DNA from: Octopus vulgaris | Lineage: Eukaryota | NCBI GenBank assembly: GCA_951406725.2 | Contig: OX597814.1 | Location: 47,802,001 to 47,866,000, forward strand | DNA: 64,000 nucleotides | Direction of reading: 5' to 3' | Part shown: positions 5,596-44,156 of the stretch, in pieces | Layout of the letters: each line of letters starts with the position of its first letter | How positions within the stretch are numbered: position 1 is the stretch's first letter | The notes under the pieces: model-generated | What the model was told of the DNA's origin: nothing | Databases searched by the model: none | The model's input: only the letters and a program-made list of their open reading frames with translations | Program-made: the position numbers and the translations under genes

Positions 5596-7252
5596 AAATG
5601 AACATGAATGTATAGCAAAATATTGTAATAGTAATAATATATGTAACCTGCAACATAAAATTTAGAGAAAAATTACAAAAATACTCTTGAAGATGTTTGT
5701 GTGCTTGTGTATGAAAAAAAAAAGAAAACACATAAAGAATAATTTAACAGGGTTATGGCCGATAGTTGAAGATTACAGAGCTTTGACCTTATCAATAAAA
5801 GAGGCGTGGAATATTATAAAAATGGAATTACAGACAGACCATATTAATGGTAGATATGTTTCATAAGAGTAAATTGCAAGGAAACAAATGCTATAGATTA
5901 TGACTCAATTAAATAGTCATTAGTAGTCCCAAGAGGAGTTAGACGCGTACCTAATGATAAAACCTCTGAATGGACTTCACATTGTGATTGCATTTTCCTT
6001 ATTACCATCTATCCATTTATCAATTCCTCCGTTTCTATTTCGTTTTTATCTATTGTATTTTGCCATACAAATTTATAAGCTAGTGATAAGAAAATCTCAG
6101 AAGATCAATTTAGATAATATAATGTGTGTGCTGATGGAATTGTCAGAATTCTTTTGAATATATTTTATTTTATGTAGCATAGTTTTAGGGGTGATAAATT
6201 CGCTTCGCTATAGAAAACGTATAACATTTGTTAAATGATATTTTGAAGACTGATTGCAACTCAGTTTCAATGAATTAATGATATTTCACCTTGAGACTGC
6301 CAACAAAAACACCAATACCAAGAGTCTATATGTATGTGATTTAATTTTAAATGAAAATTAGGTCAAATTCAAACATATATCTAGTTAATACGAATATTGA
6401 ATCTAATAATTTCTTGAAAAAAAATATCGTTGCTTTGCTGACTAATCTCATGTGTGCGATCTTTTTCTTTCTTTTTTTTGTGCAATCTTGTAAATATTTC
6501 TTGCTGCACAACAACATATATACACACACAACCCCGCCCCCTCCAAAAAACAAAACAACAACAAAACAAAACAAAACATTTGGAGTCATAAAATGAAAAA
6601 AAATCTTCATGCGTACGGGTTTTGTTCCAGCTGAGCGGTCAATGTTATTGACAGCATTTACATTGTCTATGTTAATTGATATAAGCTTCGTGACCTGTGA
6701 ATGATATTCATCATTGACCGTCGGAAAAAAAAAAGAAGAAAGAAAAAAAAAGCATTTTCGATTGTGGAACATGACTCAGTGATTGGAAGCCTAAATGTTA
6801 TTACAGAGTTGCTCTATCTCTTTTAGGTCTTTTAGTTAAGAATAAGAAAGGTTTTTCTGCAACAAAAATCTTTACTGAAAAATGAATTAGTCAGAAACAA
6901 ATATCAACAATTTATCTCTGAGATTAATATAGTTGTTAAACTGTGTTATTTATGGTATGGTTCCAGAGGAATAATTGTTGCATTAGAAAGAACAAGCAAA
7001 TATCCAGATTCATTAACAACATCATCTCCATGAACTAATACAGTTATACCAGTTTCGTCTAGGCGGTCGGGTATGATGGGAAATTTAATTATGACACCTT
7101 CATTTCGCCTTTCTTCTTCTTCTCTCGCTTTTCTTTTCATTTTTTTTTTTTTTTTTGTCGAAATGCTGCACTGCTGTCCTTAATTCGCTCCATCTCAAAT
7201 TATATCAGGGATATCGTAAATTTATATGAATAAAACCAAATAGAGTATAGAC

Positions 7253-7637
7253 AGTGGAGGCGCAATGGCCCAGTGGTTAGGGCAGTGGACTCGCGGTCAT
7301 AGGATCGCGGTTTCGATTCCCAGACCGGGCGTTGTGAGTGTTTATTGAGCGAAAACACCTAAAGCTCCACGAGGCTCCGGCAGGGGATGGTGGTGATCCC
7401 TGCTGTACTCTTTCACCATAACTTTCTCTTACTTCCTGTTTCTGTTGTACCTGTATTTCAAGGGGCCGGCCTTGTCACTCTCTGTGTCACGCTGAATATC
7501 CCCGAGAACTACGTTAAGGGTACACGTGTCTGTGGAGTGCTCAGCCACTTACACGTTAATTTCACGAGCAGGCTGTTCCGTTGATTCGGATCAACCGGAA
7601 CCCTCATCGTCGTAACCACGGAGTGCTTCCAAAAAAA
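7253..7637 (+). mobile_element. Full-length tRNA-derived SINE, family A, with 11-bp TSD
   Basis: A box TGGCCCAGTGG, B box GTTTCGATTCC, A-tail; TSD AGAGTATAGAC at 7242-7252 and 7638-7648. Confidence 0.93.
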
Positions 7638-7874
7638 AGAGTATAGACTAACCTAAAAAAATAATCAACTTTCTGAATATTATCGACACACTGTCTTATC
7701 CAGTAGCACACAATATTACCGTCTTAACAATATTATACTGTATATTATACAATTTTAACACAATACAAGTTTAGTGATGATAAATTTTAAATTTTAAGTA
7801 AATTTTAATAACTACTATACATTATTAAAGTCTGATATTTATACTGCATTTTTATTATTACCTTCTACAGTAAT

Positions 7875-8288
7875 GCTTTCTACTCTAGGCAAAAAGCCCG
7901 AATTTTTTTTTTTTTTTTTTTGGTGGTGGTGGCGGTGGTGAGGCAGTCGATTAGATCGATGCCAGTACGCAACTGGAACTTAATTTATCGACCCTGAAAG
8001 GATGAAAGGCAAAGTAGACCTCGGTGGAATTTGAACTCAGAACAGACGAAATACCCATTTCTTTACTACCCACATGGGGCTAAACACAGAGGGGACAAAC
8101 AAGGACAGGCAAACGGATTAAGTCGATTACATCGATCCTAGTGCATAACTGGTACTTAATTTATCGACCCCGAGAGGATGAAAGTCAAAGACGACCTCGG
8201 CGGAATTTGAAATCAAAACATAACGGCAGACGAAATACTGCCATGCATTTCGCCCGGTGTGCTAACGTCTTTGCCAGCTCGCCGCCTT
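7875..8288 (-). mobile_element. Composite family-B SINE (head/body, Tx1-type tail, second body, native tail) with 15-bp TSD
   Basis: Minus strand: GGCGGCGAGCTGGC head, body CTTTCATCCTCTCGGGGTCGATAAA, tail TGTCCCCTCTGTGTTTAGCCCCATGTGGGTAGTAAAGAAATG, then GGTATTTCGTC and a second body. TSD ACCTT(C/T)TACAGTAAT at 7860-7874 and 8290-8304. Confidence 0.88.
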
Positions 8289-9586
8289 AACCTTTTACAG
8301 TAATACCAGTTTCGTCTGGACGGTCGGGTCTAGTGAGAAATTTACTTATAGCACCTTCATTTCGACTTTCTTCTTCTTCTTCTTCTTCTTCTTCTTCTTC
8401 TCTTTTTTTTTTTTTTCGAAATGCTGCCCGCTGCCCTTAATTCGCTTCCTCTCTAATTATATCAGTGATATCGTAAATTTATATGAATAAAACGAAGTAG
8501 AATATAGACCAACCTAAAAATAATCAACTTTCTGAATATCATCGATACACTGTCTTATACAGTGACACATAATTTTACTGTATTAGCAATATTATAGTGT
8601 ATGTTACACAATATCAACACACAATAAAAGTTTACTGATGATAAATTAAAAGTTTAAGGAAATTTTAATAACTACTATAGATTATTAAAGTCTAAAATAT
8701 TTATTCTGCATTTTTATTAATGATATATTAATACAAATAAATTGTGCAGCCCGGAGCGGACCGCCCTCCCCGCCTCTTTGGCACGCCACTGATTTGAACT
8801 AGGAGGCAACCATCCAAAGGGCAATATTTCTCCCAGTATTAACAACCATTGCACTTTCCTTATACATTTTACATGGCATATAAATAAAATACTATGTGGA
8901 TACAGTAAGTGGGTGTATATGACTATGTGTTCAACTAATTTATTAGTGGAACACATGTTTAAACCTGATTTCAAGATGAAACACTGAAGCGTTAGTTCTC
9001 TTCATAAACTTTAGACATTTGAAACGCGAATCTGTAGACTTGTACATTACACTGGTCATAAATATAAAACTGATTATTCGTATATATAAGAGAAAACATT
9101 ACCGCTAAGTCTTCAACTGAATTACGCGACCAAAACGTGTAAAACAGTTTTTTATTTTATTTCTAACAGTTCGCTTATTATGCAGAGTGCAGGTAGATTT
9201 TCCATTCAGTTTTATGATTCTTTTGCTTTTTATTTCATTTTTCATAATACTGTGTGATGTTGTTTCGCATCTGTACTTAATCTTAATGTTACTTCTCGAA
9301 CACGTTCAAAAACTAGTGTTTTGTCTTTACTGGCCTTTTTCTACGTTTGTCTTCCAACTCAAATGCATTCAAATTTAAAGTAATATTATTAAATTAGATT
9401 CTATAATTTTTCTTTTTCTTTCACGGCACCACAGTTTTTCAACTTCTATCATCTCTCGTCCAATATATTTCCCTTCTCATTTTCTTCAGATATTGCAGGA
9501 TATACATGATTTTTTTCCTGTTAATTCTTTAAAGTGCTACATTTGTCAAGTCTTCGTTCATTTTATTCTTTCTGCCCACAACACCA

Positions 9587-10010
9587 ATATTGTTTTCAAA
9601 TTTTAGCACAAGATCAGCAATTTCGGGGAAGGAGTAAGTCGATTACATCGACCCCAGTGTTTCAGCTGATTCTTATTTTATCGACCCCGAAAGAATGAAA
9701 GGCAACGTCGACTTCGGCGGAATTTGAACTCAGAATGTGAAGACGGGCGAAATACCTATTTCTTTATTACTCACAAGGGGTTAAACATACCTATTTCTTT
9801 ATTACCCACAAGGGGTTAAACATAGAGGGGACATAGGTATTAAGTCGATTACATCGTCCCCAGTGTTTCAGCTGATTCTTATTTTATCGACCTCGAAAGG
9901 ATGAAAGGCAACGTCGGCTTCAGCGGAATTTGAACTCAGAATGTAAAGACGGACGAAATACCGCTAAAGATTTTGTCCGGTATGCTTATGATTCTGCCAG
10001 CTGGTTGCCT
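9587..10010 (-). mobile_element. Family-B SINE interrupted by an 84-bp Tx1-type 3' tail insert between 122-bp direct repeats
   Basis: Repeats 9635-9756 and 9841-9962 differ at 7 positions. Insert 9757-9840 holds two copies of TATTTCTTTATTAC(T/C)CACAAGGGGTTAAACATA. Confidence 0.9.
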
Positions 10011-10308
10011 CAAACAACAATAATATTGATTTCAAATTTTGGCTGAAGGCGGCGATTCTGCCAGTTCGCCGCCTTAAACACAATACCAATATCGAAAAGG
10101 AAGTATAACTTGCTGGAATTAAAATGCTGCCAGCTGGAATGCTGCTCTTAGCAACCAAAAGAGGTCATTCAGCCACCAGACTGACAACCTTATGAAAATA
10201 AAACTAGCAAAACTCTAAAATCGAGCATGAAAAAGGCATTCAGCAAAACCTACCCATTTTTATTTTTAATCTTTTATTTGTTTCCGTTAATGGACTACAA
10301 CCATATTA

Positions 10309-13300
10309 TATTTCTTTATTACCCATAAGGGTTTACATAGATGGGGACATTCAATGATTTGGGGTCATGTGGATGAAATGGAGCTATTTACAGGGACATC
10401 GAATGGATTATTTACAATGAAAATGAAAATGAAATTGAACAAGAACAAACAAACAAAAAGGGACATATGAAGTCAAAAGAACAGGATAGCCGACCCCACG
10501 AGCCCTGTTATTTTAACTGAAACTTTTTGGTAAGGGATCACGGCGTGTTCATGCAAGGCCTTTCACACCTAGCATCCGTGCAACACGCATCCATCTTTTT
10601 TTGAATACAGACTCTGACAGACACATTTTCTCTAGCCCCACCTTCCTTTTCAGATGGAACTTGAAAAAGTTCGTTAGGGCGGTGCCAGAGATCATGGTGT
10701 CTGACATTATACCTTTCACTCTAGTCTTCCATATAACCCCTTTCGCAACTGCTACTATCACGAGAAAGCAATGCTTACCTTCGTTCGTCATGAAACCAGG
10801 CGGGTCAATTTTTAAGATTTACTCAGACGACAGCTGTACTCTTCTTCCGTCCGACAACAGGTGTTCGGCATAAACCCACACGTCCGAAATATCCGGACTG
10901 AACAATAGCGTGCAGGACTGTTTCCACATCCCGCCCGCATCTTGGACAGACCGATGGTCCACTGTGACCATACCTTGTGAGTTTATCTCGAACGGGTAAG
11001 GCTCCTCTGTAACATTGCCAGGCCAAGGACTTCTGAAAATTATCCAGTGTCCCTGGTCCGAATGTCCTTTAGAACAGGCTGTCTAACTGATTACCATCGA
11101 GACCCAGGGTCCTTCCCAGGGTATCGTCATTTCCGGCCTCTACCAACCTGCTATAGAACGCTGCGGTGGTACCAAAGCCGCCGGCATTGCCCGTGCTGCG
11201 GAAGTGTAAGAGAGCCTTACGGCACTCCCAATACCACATACTCAATCTTAGTCTGCGACGAAACCAGGTTTCTCTACCACCAAAACTGGCAAAACTGGGG
11301 AACATCTGTTTTGCGAGTGGGGACCACACCCGTTCACCTTCTAGGTATTGCCAAAGATGCCTCAACATCAGCGCATGTCTGCGCATCAACAGCCAAGGCA
11401 TCCCTAACCCACCCTTTAACGGCTTTTGACAACAGATAGAACGTCTCATAAGAGGAGTGGAACCCTTCCACAAAAAGCGAAAGATTTGCCTCTCCATCTT
11501 GCTCAATCACGAATCCGGACAAGGGACGACGGTTAGGCGGTATATGATGACCGATGCCATGAACACATTGGCCACCTCCGCCCTCCCTTTCAAGGATAGC
11601 CACCGCCAAGACCAAGTCTTGACCACGTGAGCCACCTTGCTCGCGACCTCAGACCAGTTCTTTTCTATCTGGAGACCTGGACCAAACCAGATCCCTAGCA
11701 ATTTAACCGGGGCCTCCGTCCAGCATCCCACGATGCTATTCGAAGCGAAGGCATCGACTTGCCAACCCAGGTGCCGAGTTGCAAGCCGACTGACTTTTCC
11801 CGGTTGGTTTTTGCTCCTGACACCGTCTCGTACTCCTTGATGGTGTCTCCTACATTCTGTAGGATGATGGTGGTGTCGTCCGCATACGCTGTAACAGATC
11901 CTCCTCCTCCTGGATTTGTCGGGATGACGCTCAGCTTTCGCAGTAATGGCTCGAGAGCCATCACATATAAAAGCGGAGAGAGCGGACACCCTTGACGAAC
12001 TGACCGTTTGATGCGGAACGACCTAGAAAGTAGACCGTTCACCCGAACGATCGAGTCGATGTTGTACAACTGTATAATCCACCTGAGGAAACCAGTACCC
12101 AGCCCGAACTGTGCGAGTACAGACACCAAGTAACGATGGTTCACCCTATCGAAAGCTTTACTCTGGTCTAAATGGACCAGTGCCCCACCCTTGCCAGAGT
12201 TATTCCCAAACCCTTCTACGGTGTAACGTATAAGGTGAAGATTATCCTGAATAGTTCTTCTGGGGACTGCAAAAGTTTGTGCCTCCTCGATCAGACCATC
12301 TGCGACACGCGTCAACCTTTTCGCTAACACCTTGGCCAAAATCTTCACCTCCGCGTTCAGCAGGGTGATAGGCCTAAAGTTATCTATTCTGTTTCCCTTG
12401 TCGAGGTCCTTCCTGATCAGTGTCACCACTCCCCGGCGTACAGACCTGGGAATCCTCCCATTCTGATACCAGTTTGCGAAAACGCTGGCCAGTATTGGCC
12501 CGAACAAGTCTGGCATACTTTTATATAGTTCGTAGGGTAAACCATCGAGTCCCGGCGCCTTACCTCTGCCACAGTCGGCTATGGCCTCAGTCACCTCCTC
12601 AGGCGTGATTGACCCTTCACAGCTCTCCGCATCCCGCCCCGAGAGGCGCGGCAGCCCGGCGAGGAAGCCCGTAAGGTCCACCCTCTCATCCGGTCCACCT
12701 TCACCCCCGAAAAGCTGGGCGAAGTGCTCCTGAAAAAGTCCGACACATCTCCTCGGGTTCGTTTACCACATCGCCCTTTTCGTTCGTCACAGACTTAATT
12801 GTGGAATCGTTTCCGTGTTGAGCCTCCACAACTCGTGCCCATCCGGCGGCCTTAATTCCCTCGCACCCCATTGCGCGAACTCTAGCTCTGACGATACAAC
12901 CCATATGCTTGGTTTCGAGGTGCTGGTTTAATTCCTGTCTCTTCACCTTCACCTGGGTCCCGTCGCCAGATCTTATGGCTTCTTCTAAAGCCTTAACTAG
13001 CCCCTCTTCTTTCTTACGCCTTTTATTTGCTAGTCCCATACTATATCTAATGGACTCGTATTTTATGGCTCTCTTGAGCGCTAACCACCATTTGTTGTTA
13101 AGAATGGAACCGGTTAACGCCCTCTGAATTTGTAACCTAATCCGGCTTCTGTACTCCTCAATCGCCAAAAGGGACTTATTGAGTTTCCAGTAACCGGATC
13201 CTTTTCTACATAACTTATCTAGGTACAGCTTACCAGTGACCATCTTGTGGTCACTGTAACTGACCAAGTGAAACTGTGGACACTTAACTATGCCTTTATC

Positions 13301-14056
13301 TAGTTCTCTAATAAAAATCATGTCTATGTAAGATTTGGAAGACCCGTCGCTATTTGACCACGTCCACAGTGGAGCGTCCGGGAATTCCAGTCTGTAAGGA
13401 TCTACTAGCTGAAAGCGACTCAGTAGATCTCGTAAGCCACTGTTAGGTTTCCTATCATCTTTGGAGCCAACACTATCGACACGCGCATTGACAATAGTGT
13501 TAAAGTCCCCTAGCATCACTATGGATTTTGACGTCCCTAGAAATTTCTCCAGGTCCCGAAAGTAATCAGTCTGATGTGATTGGGGTGCGTACACCGCCAC
13601 CAGCCTGATCTCCTTACCACAACTGAAAGTCAGACCTAAGACGACCAGCCCTACCCTCTGGGTCAACAAAAATTAACTTTTTCTCTGAAACTCTATTCCT
13701 TTTAAGTAGGACCAACACCCCACTTCCGCCACCCACCTGCCGACATGGAGAAATAAATTTCTCGTAGCCATCCAGGAGCGGGAGTAGATCTCTTGGCCCT
13801 TTCAACCGAGTTTCAGTAGCTACAACAACATCTAAATCGTTTCAGTAGCTACAACAACATCTAAATCGAACTGTTTCCAGTTCGTCATCAGGCCACGCAC
13901 ATTTAAACACCCTACTTGAACAGCCATAAATCACTTACTTTGTTTCTTCTGAGTCCGGGGGGCGAGGGAGAACCGCCTCCTCTTCGTCTGGGGCCCGTGG
14001 AGTCGGCTGGATCAGGCCCTCGTACAGACGGTTCGAAACCTCCATCCGCAGAAGGC
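10309..14056 (-). mobile_element. Tx1/L1-clade non-LTR retrotransposon, 5'-truncated within ORF1, decayed
   Basis: APE, RT and CCHC domains in order; 3' UTR ends AATAAAGAAATA; TSD GGACTACAACCATATTA at 10292-10308 and 14071-14087. Confidence 0.95.
10549..13927 (-). pseudogene. LINE ORF2 (AP-endonuclease, reverse transcriptase, zinc finger), broken by frameshifts and stops
   Basis: Start MAVQVGCLNVRGL (ATG at 13927). APE motifs AVYAP, MLGDFN, SYID, SDH, WKLN (12701-13669). RT motifs KAPGLDG, FRPITLLN, DQSKAFD, QGCPLSP, YADD (11695-12681). GGLGMP. CPRC...ETVLHA (10823-11026). Confidence 0.95.
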
Positions 14057-14257
14057 CTACAACCATATTAGGACTACAACCATATTAGAGCATCACTTTG
14101 AGTAGGGTATACTCGAACAGATCGAGCTCAGTGTTTTTTCTTAAAGTCTTGTATATTTCTATAAGTAGGCGAACAGAATGAAAACACACTCTCTTTCTCA
14201 CACATACACAAACACACACACACACATGCACGCACATACACACACATATGTGCTAGC

Positions 14258-42989: not shown

Positions 42990-43044
<55 letters not shown>

Positions 43045-43176
43045 AAAATAGTAAAGTGTGAAAAAACGACAGAAGGCTTAAATGTTAAAAAATATATATA
43101 TTTGTGTCAAAATGTCTGGAGAATATTGGAAAAATTTTTTTCCCTTCCTTAAAATGACATAATTTTAAAATTTTTA

Positions 43177-43216
43177 AAGAAATTACCGGTTTCGCGTGTA
43201 GCTTTTCAAATTTCTT
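43177..43216 (-). ncRNA. Minimal type-I hammerhead motif (mirror of 43943-43982)
   Basis: Exact reverse complement of 43943-43982. Confidence 0.8.
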
Positions 43217-43942
43217 GTGACGTTATGTTTATATTGCATGGAGTTATCGTTGTTTTTATTTCCAGGAGATTTCTAAATAAGGGGAGGTAGTGAGTGATTT
43301 CTTCCGGTGTAGGGGAGATAATCGCTTAAAAATTTTTTTTCCCTTTTCCTTGTTAATTTCTCTGTGTCAGTATGTTCGGATTGTTGAGTCTTTTTTCCCT
43401 TTTCCTTGTTAATTTCTCTGTGTCAGTATCTTCGGATGGTTGAGTCTGGGTTTGTACTTTTCAATGAAGAATGTTTCCTTGTTCAGTCTCATTTGTGTTG
43501 TTGATCCGAAAGCACATTGGTAAAATGGGAAGATTAAAAACAGATTGCATTCCCAGAATATAGAATGATACCTTTTAGTGAGCACATTGAGAAATGCGCA
43601 AAGCAACTACTGCCACAATTTTTAATCTTCCCATTTTACCAATGTGCTTTCGGATCAACAACACAAATGAGACTGAACAAGGAAACATTCTTCATTGAAA
43701 AGTACAAACCCAGACTCAACCATCCGAACATACTGACACAGAGAAATTAACAAGGAAAAGGGAAAAAAGACTCAACCATCCGAACATACTGACACAGAGA
43801 AATTAACAAGGAAAAGGGAAAAAAATTTTTTAAGCGATTATCTCCCCTACACCGGAAGAAATCACTCACTACCTCCCCTTATTTAGAAATCTCCTGGAAA
43901 TAAAAACAACGATAACTCCATGCAATATAAACATAACGTCAC

Positions 43943-43982
43943 AAGAAATTTGAAAAGCTACACGCGAAACCGGTAATTTCTT
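43943..43982 (+). ncRNA. Minimal type-I hammerhead ribozyme motif, U3-A8 variant
   Basis: AAGAAAT-TTGAAAA-GC-TACAC-GC-GAAA-CCGG-TA-ATTTCTT: 7-bp stem I, core, 2-bp stem II, GAAA, palindromic CCGG, UA cleavage site. Confidence 0.8.
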
Positions 43983-44156
43983 TAAAAATTTTAAAATTAT
44001 GTCATTTTAAGGAAGGGAAAAAAATTTTTCCAATATTCTCCAGACATTTTGACACAAATATATATATTTTTTAACATTTAAGCCTTCTGTCGTTTTTTCA
44101 CACTTTACTATTTTCTTATATATTCACCCACGTGCTTTACCAAACAAACTTTCTTA

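What the first reader, a model, noticed from the sequence alone, without database searches (positions are those of the whole stretch)
7875..8288. Second case of a Tx1-type tail joined to GGTATTTCG inside SINE B
Seen: on the minus strand the tail ...GTGGGTAGTAAAGAAATG is followed immediately by GGTATTTCGTC and a repeat of the SINE body (7945-8055 vs 8121-8238). The breakpoint is the same as at 9756/9757, but the insert is longer and different, and the SINE subtype differs (AAATTAAG vs AAAATAAG). Inference: an independent event at the same nucleotide, supporting target specificity. Alternatively the whole dimer moved as one unit, since it has an outer 15-bp TSD.
Basis: partly seen in the sequence, partly recalled or inferred. 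Interest (0 to 1): 0.7.

Follow-up and report, generated by a model that had tools for sequence, protein, structure and literature searches.

The report
SINE chains at a LINE landing site
This is one ordinary copy of a very common doubled short repeat whose internal joint occurs about 45,000 times in the genome; that joint is also the exact spot where a family of long jumping genes lands and where young copies of the repeat land inside older ones, likely helped by a few landing-site letters carried on the element's own RNA.

Summary
The sequence is as described. 7875-8289(-) reads head, core, 65-nt LINE-like tail, core, second tail, with a 14/15 outer TSD. The 'insert' is the standard tail of SINE subfamily A, and the joint has 44,891 exact genomic copies. 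This locus shows no sign of insertion in place: the two cores are different subfamilies, there is no inner TSD, and the left unit is not younger. It probably moved as a unit. The site-specificity idea holds at genome level, but not for the LINE in this window (0 of 56 tails at the site). A sister Tx1-like family (RT 73% identical) sits there in 72 of 86 tails, in older SINE hosts. Young SINE A copies also land there in older SINE B copies (right cores older, p=0.0002; seven nested cases). Landing letters follow the element's lineage, which points to RNA 3' tags helping to aim. The scan noted this LINE/SINE system before on other DNA of this genome, and I checked one such note. The closest known case is crocodilian Tx1-Mar/SINEU, but here the target is the SINE itself.

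The parts
8290..8304 (-). 5' copy of the outer target-site duplication (15 nt)
   Evidence: 14 of 15 identical to 7860-7874
8240..8289 (-). SINE head, A-type, with an A-box-like motif (motif recalled); its 3' end forms a hairpin with the first core letters
   Evidence: fold (z -1.7, weak)
8121..8239 (-). left core, subfamily A (contains the B-box-like motif, recalled)
8056..8120 (-). tail T1, 65 nt; last ~45 nt shared with the 3' ends of two Tx1-like LINE families
8047..8065 (-). joint J1 (tail | GGTATTTCG); same nucleotide as the landing site of the site-specific LINE family
7945..8055 (-). right core, subfamily B2, 8-nt deletion near its start
7875..7944 (-). second tail T2 (not Tx1-like; partner LINE not identified), here with CCA-repeat and A-run expansion
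7860..7874 (-). 3' copy of the outer target-site duplication
9594..10013 (-). comparison locus: old B1-type SINE whose core is duplicated around a short tail, GGTAT and a partial tail; local event
10309..14070 (-). Tx1-like LINE (endonuclease and RT pieces, frameshifted), 17-nt TSD, not in a SINE; its family does not use J1

Best explanation
The element is a dimeric SINE (head-core A-LINE-like tail-core B2-tail 2) that likely retrotransposed here as one unit, and its internal joint is a landing site that is used again and again, likely by Tx1-like machinery helped by a short RNA 3' tag. Shown: chains head-(core-tail)n-[core-tail 2] share one fixed joint; a LINE family and young SINE A copies sit at that nucleotide inside older SINEs; landing letters follow the element's lineage. 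Inferred steps: (1) the LINE enzyme nicks resident SINEs between the A and B boxes; (2) transcripts of chained SINEs or landed LINEs run a few letters past the tail into the old landing site, and this tag pairs with the nicked strand, so the same joint is rebuilt; (3) the new cDNA often anneals to the host's homologous head, hiding the inner duplication; (4) finished chains are then copied elsewhere as units, and longer chains also grow by local duplication. I estimate roughly half of A-B dimers formed in place. This is rough, from 33 pairs and 10 monomers.
For: 44,891 joints. 33 of 72 tail hits in 864 kb of unselected DNA run into a core, 31 at core position 1. Site-specific LINE: 30 of 30 top loci including the query, 72 of 86 tails, SINE head upstream in 20 of 20 full-length copies, hosts 3.0% vs LINE 0.5% diverged. 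Right cores older than left: 4.62 vs 2.31 changes in 39 pairs, p=0.0002; control A-A pairs 1.93 vs 2.30, p=0.26; B2 only 4.03 vs 2.27, p=0.0013. Nested cases L027, L177, L227, L250, L257, L298, L311. Tag evidence: free ends of T-subtype tails read GGTA 20 times and AGAA once among 54, C-subtype tails GGTA 2 and AGAA 8 among 24, p=5e-5, matching the joint each subtype mostly carries. Where a TSD was found, the target already had GGTA in 8 of 11 and AGAA in 5 of 8 cases, the rest being overwritten. The young LINE clade has a C joint and the older copies a G joint. Unit movement here: TSD 14/15, A-type head, left 7 vs right 2 changes.
Against: Nothing here separates endonuclease specificity from RNA pairing for the LINE. 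L375 has host letters that mismatch the supposed tag, and L177 and L370 have true host-borne duplications. An outer TSD cannot distinguish unit movement from insertion into an older host. Few first cores of T2-ending chains are B-type (8 of 80 against 58 A-type), fewer than step 3 predicts if half formed in place. Hidden B2 sub-subfamilies could inflate the age of right cores. The tag counts come partly from loci chosen by joint patterns, and I dropped 4 ends that were probably truncated joints. Which LINE mobilises the SINE is not shown: its tail resembles both families.
Confidence: 0.6

Rival explanations
1. Pure endonuclease targeting: a sequence-specific Tx1 endonuclease cuts before GGTATTTCG, and every joint, including this one, is a separate insertion into a resident SINE; RNA tags play no part.
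For: LINE family at the site in 72 of 86 tails while a close sister family never is (0 of 56; endonucleases 70% identical). Host breaks cluster 11-23 nt into the core. Right units are older on average.
Against: 34 of 72 tail hits in unselected DNA (SINE and a few LINE tails) end in no SINE module. Landing letters differ by SINE subtype and LINE lineage. The 5' and 3' copies of the 16 target letters differ in 14 of 20 LINE loci. This locus has an older-looking left core.
Confidence: 0.25
2. Single dimeric or multimeric master: the joint arose once and was amplified; unit number varies by internal priming and DNA slippage; there is no recurrent targeting.
For: 80 of 91 tails are 65 nt. Outer TSDs flank 25 of 51 and 17 of 29 chains. 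8 of 30 internal neighbour pairs share 2 or more rare alleles, showing local duplication. Fits this locus.
Against: Right units are A, B1 or B2 and often far older than the left (11 vs 0 pairs differing by 5 or more in the B1-selected set). Nested insertions and a LINE family use the same nucleotide.
Confidence: 0.1
3. DNA-level recombination or gene conversion between SINE copies transfers the tail and joint into resident SINEs without reverse transcription.
For: Cores with A 5' halves and B 3' halves, and the reverse, are common after the joint. The 9756 locus has a host-core duplication longer than a normal TSD.
Against: It does not explain 5.4-kb LINEs at the site, 11-23-nt target duplications, or GGTA/AGAA tags at unrelated genomic sites.
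Confidence: 0.05

Closest known systems
Crocodilian Tx1-Mar LINEs and SINEU (Kojima 2015, PMC4494074; passages and section 14 read)
   Same: A Tx1-clade LINE group and a SINE share a preferred site inside another repeat; tandem SINEs arise by sequential insertion; the SINE's preference is weaker in some families (23%, 13%) than others (90%).
   Different: The target there is a Mariner DNA transposon. Here it is the head of the tail-sharing SINE itself, so each insertion rebuilds the site, and landing letters track the element's lineage.
Xenopus Tx1 in Tx1D (as cited in PMC4494074, passage)
   Same: Tx1-clade LINE specific for a non-autonomous repeat.
   Different: The target is a piggyBac derivative, not a SINE.
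Tailless retropseudogenes and internally primed Alu monomers (PMC5322556, passages)
   Same: Target complementary to 2-18 nt of the RNA; monomers keep a few letters of the next unit.
   Different: L1-driven and dispersed; the passages read describe no fixed site being rebuilt.
Octopus OR1/OR2 CORE-SINEs (Ohshima and Okada 1994, not read; named in PMC4824008 and PMC4758252, passages)
   Same: Probably the same SINE group (octopus-like genome, abundant tRNA-type SINE); this link is recalled, not tested.
   Different: No sequence was available to compare; dimer structure in that paper is unknown to me.
SINE-derived satellites of squamates (PMC10702118, abstract only)
   Same: Tandem arrays of SINE portions.
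   Different: Those are satellite-like and likely subtelomeric; these are short dispersed chains with TSDs.

Membership tests
SINE (SINEBase definition, PMC3531059 passage) | short (<1 kb), interspersed, at least 100 copies | tested here: met
   414 nt; 101,678 exact tail matches
SINE (SINEBase definition, PMC3531059 passage) | head derived from tRNA, 7SL or 5S RNA | tested here: inconclusive
   A/B-box-like motifs by eye (recalled); ARAGORN found no gene, Rfam no tRNA hit
SINE (SINEBase definition, PMC3531059 passage) | target-site duplications | tested here: met
   14/15 here; 26 of 33 monomers of type A vs 0% control
SINE with LINE-derived tail | 3' end shared with a LINE | tested here: met
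   last ~45 nt align with both LINE families
Octopus OR1/OR2 CORE-SINE | identity to the published consensus and CORE domain | not testable with these tools
   1994 paper not held; no consensus available
Tx1 clade (site-specific LINE family) | ORF1 with zinc knuckle; ORF2 with APE endonuclease and RT | tested here: met
   zf-CCHC; Exo_endo_phos, RVT_1, zf-RVT in 1,134 aa; best solved relative L1 ORF2
Tx1 clade (site-specific LINE family) | RT tree placement with reference Tx1 elements | tested here: inconclusive
   no tree built; one named hit 'Transposon TX1 uncharacterized 149 kDa protein', 37% identity, E 1e-75, rank 92 of 120 listed
Target-specific Tx1 family | most copies at one site in independent hosts | tested here: met
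   72 of 86; hosts older and varied
Target-specific Tx1 family | the LINE in this window targets the site | tested here: not met
   0 of 56; 0 of 29 full ends
Target-specific Tx1 family | endonuclease cleaves the site in vitro | not testable with these tools
   needs biochemistry

The most novel reading that the evidence does not exclude
A self-renewing, RNA-guided landing system: each element inherits a few letters of its last landing site on its RNA 3' end, these letters choose the next site, and so LINE lineages and SINE subtypes using near-identical enzymes keep separate addresses inside the SINE head. Target specificity would then be inherited in the RNA tag before, or instead of, in the endonuclease.
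Probability: 0.3. Interest if true: 0.8.

Novelty: new variant of a known kind. Interest (0 to 1): 0.5.

Why it matters
It explains a large class of octopus-type repeats (tens of thousands of chained SINEs) as products of repeated landing at one site, not as fixed subfamilies, which affects repeat annotation and SINE dating. Two LINE families 70-73% identical in endonuclease and RT, one site-specific and one not, give a natural pair for testing whether specificity lies in the enzyme or in an RNA tag. The locus itself is ordinary.

Tried and rejected
(1) My reading, that no LINE targets the site, rested on the window's family only and was overturned. (2) 120-nt 'giant TSD' for this locus: rejected, since the cores are different subfamilies with no shared rare alleles; it fits 9756 only. 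(3) Outer TSD as proof of unit movement: not diagnostic. (4) Folding: no significant tail hairpin in this copy (z +0.63); the fold at 10331-10400 missed the last 22 nt of the LINE and says nothing about its tail. (5) Public DNA runs: no contig spans the locus and no empty or monomer allele was seen; both outer junctions appear in other runs; inconclusive. (6) A genome-wide count of joint plus 3' core haplotype was not obtained; 5' haplotype counts were 228 (B1-like) and 2,638 (B2-like) after the joint and 994 for both after the head. (7) Loci L334-L336 (ORF1-only arrays from earlier notes) showed no J1 site and were not followed. (8) Atlas search gave only generic RT names. (9) Paper searches listed no paper on a LINE targeting its tail-sharing SINE; subscription journals and Repbase were not searched and no supplements were read.

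Full report
Observation. The minus strand of 7860-8304 reads: 15-nt target copy, SINE head (8240-8289), core (8121-8239), 65-nt tail (8056-8120), core starting GGTATTTCG (7945-8055, 8-nt deletion), second tail (7875-7944), target copy with one mismatch. The 9756 joint is at the same core position. The genome is 2.8 Gb in 227 contigs. I take it to be an octopus from its size, from recall of the SINE, and from an Argonauta hit; this is inference.

How common the joint is. The 19-mer joint has 44,891 exact matches against 0 for the control, and the tail end 101,678. Elements parse as head-(core-tail)n with or without a final core-tail 2, n mostly 1 to 4. In 800 kb of unselected DNA plus the window, 33 of 72 tail hits run into a core: 31 at core position 1 and 2 that start with GGTATT and then diverge. 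Of 99 exact joints, 91 had a measurable tail and 80 of these were 65 nt; 7 of the other 8 also had a core upstream by eye, and none had a LINE. So the 'insert' at 8055 is the standard tail of subfamily A. A second joint type, tail|AGAAWCGTTAGCA, has 3,288 exact copies.

This locus. The left core is type A and the right core type B2. They share no rare alleles, and no inner duplication is visible. Non-CpG changes are 7 left and 2 right, the most reversed of 33 A-B2 pairs, about 6:1 for equal age over an older right unit. Unit insertion is therefore likelier, though an early insertion into a then-young B2 copy cannot be excluded. Public contigs did not settle it. The 9756 locus differs: both cores are old B1 type and share a 25-mer found only twice in the genome, both times there. 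Its tail is doubled with GGTAT in between.

Do SINEs land at the joint? Yes, in part. Right cores carry more changes than left ones: 4.62 vs 2.31 in 39 pairs, p=0.0002, with 9 vs 0 pairs differing by 5 or more. A-A pairs do not differ (44 pairs, p=0.26). These loci were mostly chosen for an exact joint, and the first 21 columns were dropped. Against a B2-specific consensus the values are 4.03 vs 2.27 (33 pairs), with B2 monomers at 5.5 (n=10), which suggests a mixture. Among 589 parsed elements, 16 full heads directly followed another SINE piece. In six (L027, L177, L227, L250, L298, L311), and in L257 seen, a host head or joint plus 11-23 core letters precedes the new element, and its last tail resumes at the joint. 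Against frequent formation in place, only 8 of 80 first cores of T2-ending chains are B-type. Longer chains also grow locally: 8 of 30 internal neighbour pairs share 2 or more rare alleles, against 0 in controls. Outer TSDs flank 25 of 51 and 17 of 29 chains but fit either route.

Does a LINE target it? The LINE in this window (10309-14070) does not: 0 of 29 full 3' ends among 30 loci and 0 of 56 tail matches. An earlier scan note led me to L333, where a LINE-derived insert sits at this site. Its family is at the site in 30 of 30 top loci including the query and in 72 of 86 tail matches, with 3 ambiguous and 11 off-site (counted by eye). All 20 full-length copies fetched have a SINE head upstream. 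Downstream cores are 3.0% diverged against 0.5% for the LINE (LINE copies were top hits, so biased young). ORF1 has a zinc knuckle and ORF2 endonuclease, RT and zf-RVT domains. The two families are 73% identical in RT and 70% in the endonuclease region. Tx1 membership rests on architecture and one named hit, not a tree.

What aims the insertion. Three results point to landing-site letters on the RNA. First, free ends of T-subtype tails, which mostly carry the GGTA joint (149 vs 3), read GGTA 20 times and AGAA once among 54, after dropping 4 probable truncated joints. C-subtype tails, which mostly carry the AGAA joint (19 vs 8), read AGAA 8 times and GGTA twice among 24 (p=5e-5; background 0.25% and 0.7%). 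Second, where a TSD was found (19 of 32), the target had the full tag in 13 cases and was overwritten in 6. Third, the joint base follows LINE lineage: 49 C joints, of which the 20 loci sampled from that class form one young clade, and 20 G joints in older copies. Upstream heads are a minority variant in 19 of 21 young LINE loci against 17 of 80 SINE A heads, and the two target copies differ in 14 of 20. Against a tag-only model, L375 has mismatching host letters and L177 and L370 show true host duplications, so a positioned nick is probably also involved. I cannot apportion the two.

Comparison. The closest case is crocodilian Tx1-Mar with SINEU (PMC4494074; passages and section 14 read), where tandem SINEU-3 copies are read as sequential insertions into a Mariner. 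Complementarity-primed insertion is described for tailless retropseudogenes (PMC5322556, passages). OR1 and OR2 are listed as octopus CORE-SINEs (PMC4824008, PMC4758252, passages); the 1994 paper was not held. PMC13282606 (passages) reports 11.6% SINE and recently active L1-Tx1 in O. vulgaris, with no 'dimer' in the main text. I also saw passages of PMC3531059 and PMC3747384 and the abstract of PMC10702118. Eight searches listed nothing on a LINE targeting its tail-sharing SINE. Repbase, subscription journals and supplements were not seen and may describe it. The scan reported this system at other places in this genome; those notes are leads, and I verified one.

Verdict. The locus is an ordinary dimer. 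Interest 0.5.

Noticed in passing
L032, L035, L059 (3' flanks); C29 rows: Copies of the window's own LINE family end just upstream of reading frames that look like histone H3 and H2B starts (recognised from recall), and five C29 copies share another downstream flank; possibly multiplied with a histone gene array.
   Followed up: no
L171-L200; genome-wide: Second fixed joint, tail|AGAAWCGTTAGCA, in the A-box region of the head; 3,288 exact copies, often mixed with the first joint in one chain. No LINE upstream in these 30 loci.
   Followed up: partly
window 9594-10013 (-): Old B1 SINE with about 100 nt of its own core duplicated around a doubled tail containing GGTAT; looks like an aborted and restarted reverse transcription at the site.
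   Followed up: partly
L116, L118 (two), L122: Related LINE-like tails followed directly by (TATC)n; perhaps a microsatellite-targeting sister family.
   Followed up: no
window 14054-14087 (-): The LINE's 5' end starts with a 16/17 repeat of its own target duplication.
   Followed up: no
L390, L401: Site-specific LINE tail followed by about 14 target letters and then another element: stacked insertions at the site.
   Followed up: no
window 7040-7860 and 8300-8725: The dimer sits at the boundary of two tandem copies of another ~440-nt repeat, one of which holds a further insertion at about 7250-7625.
   Followed up: no
window 43036-43540 and 43619-44123: 505-nt inverted repeat, 99% complementary, 78 nt apart.
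   Followed up: no
L334-L336: Arrays of a ~2-kb ORF-bearing unit (from earlier notes); no match to the J1 site.
   Followed up: partly
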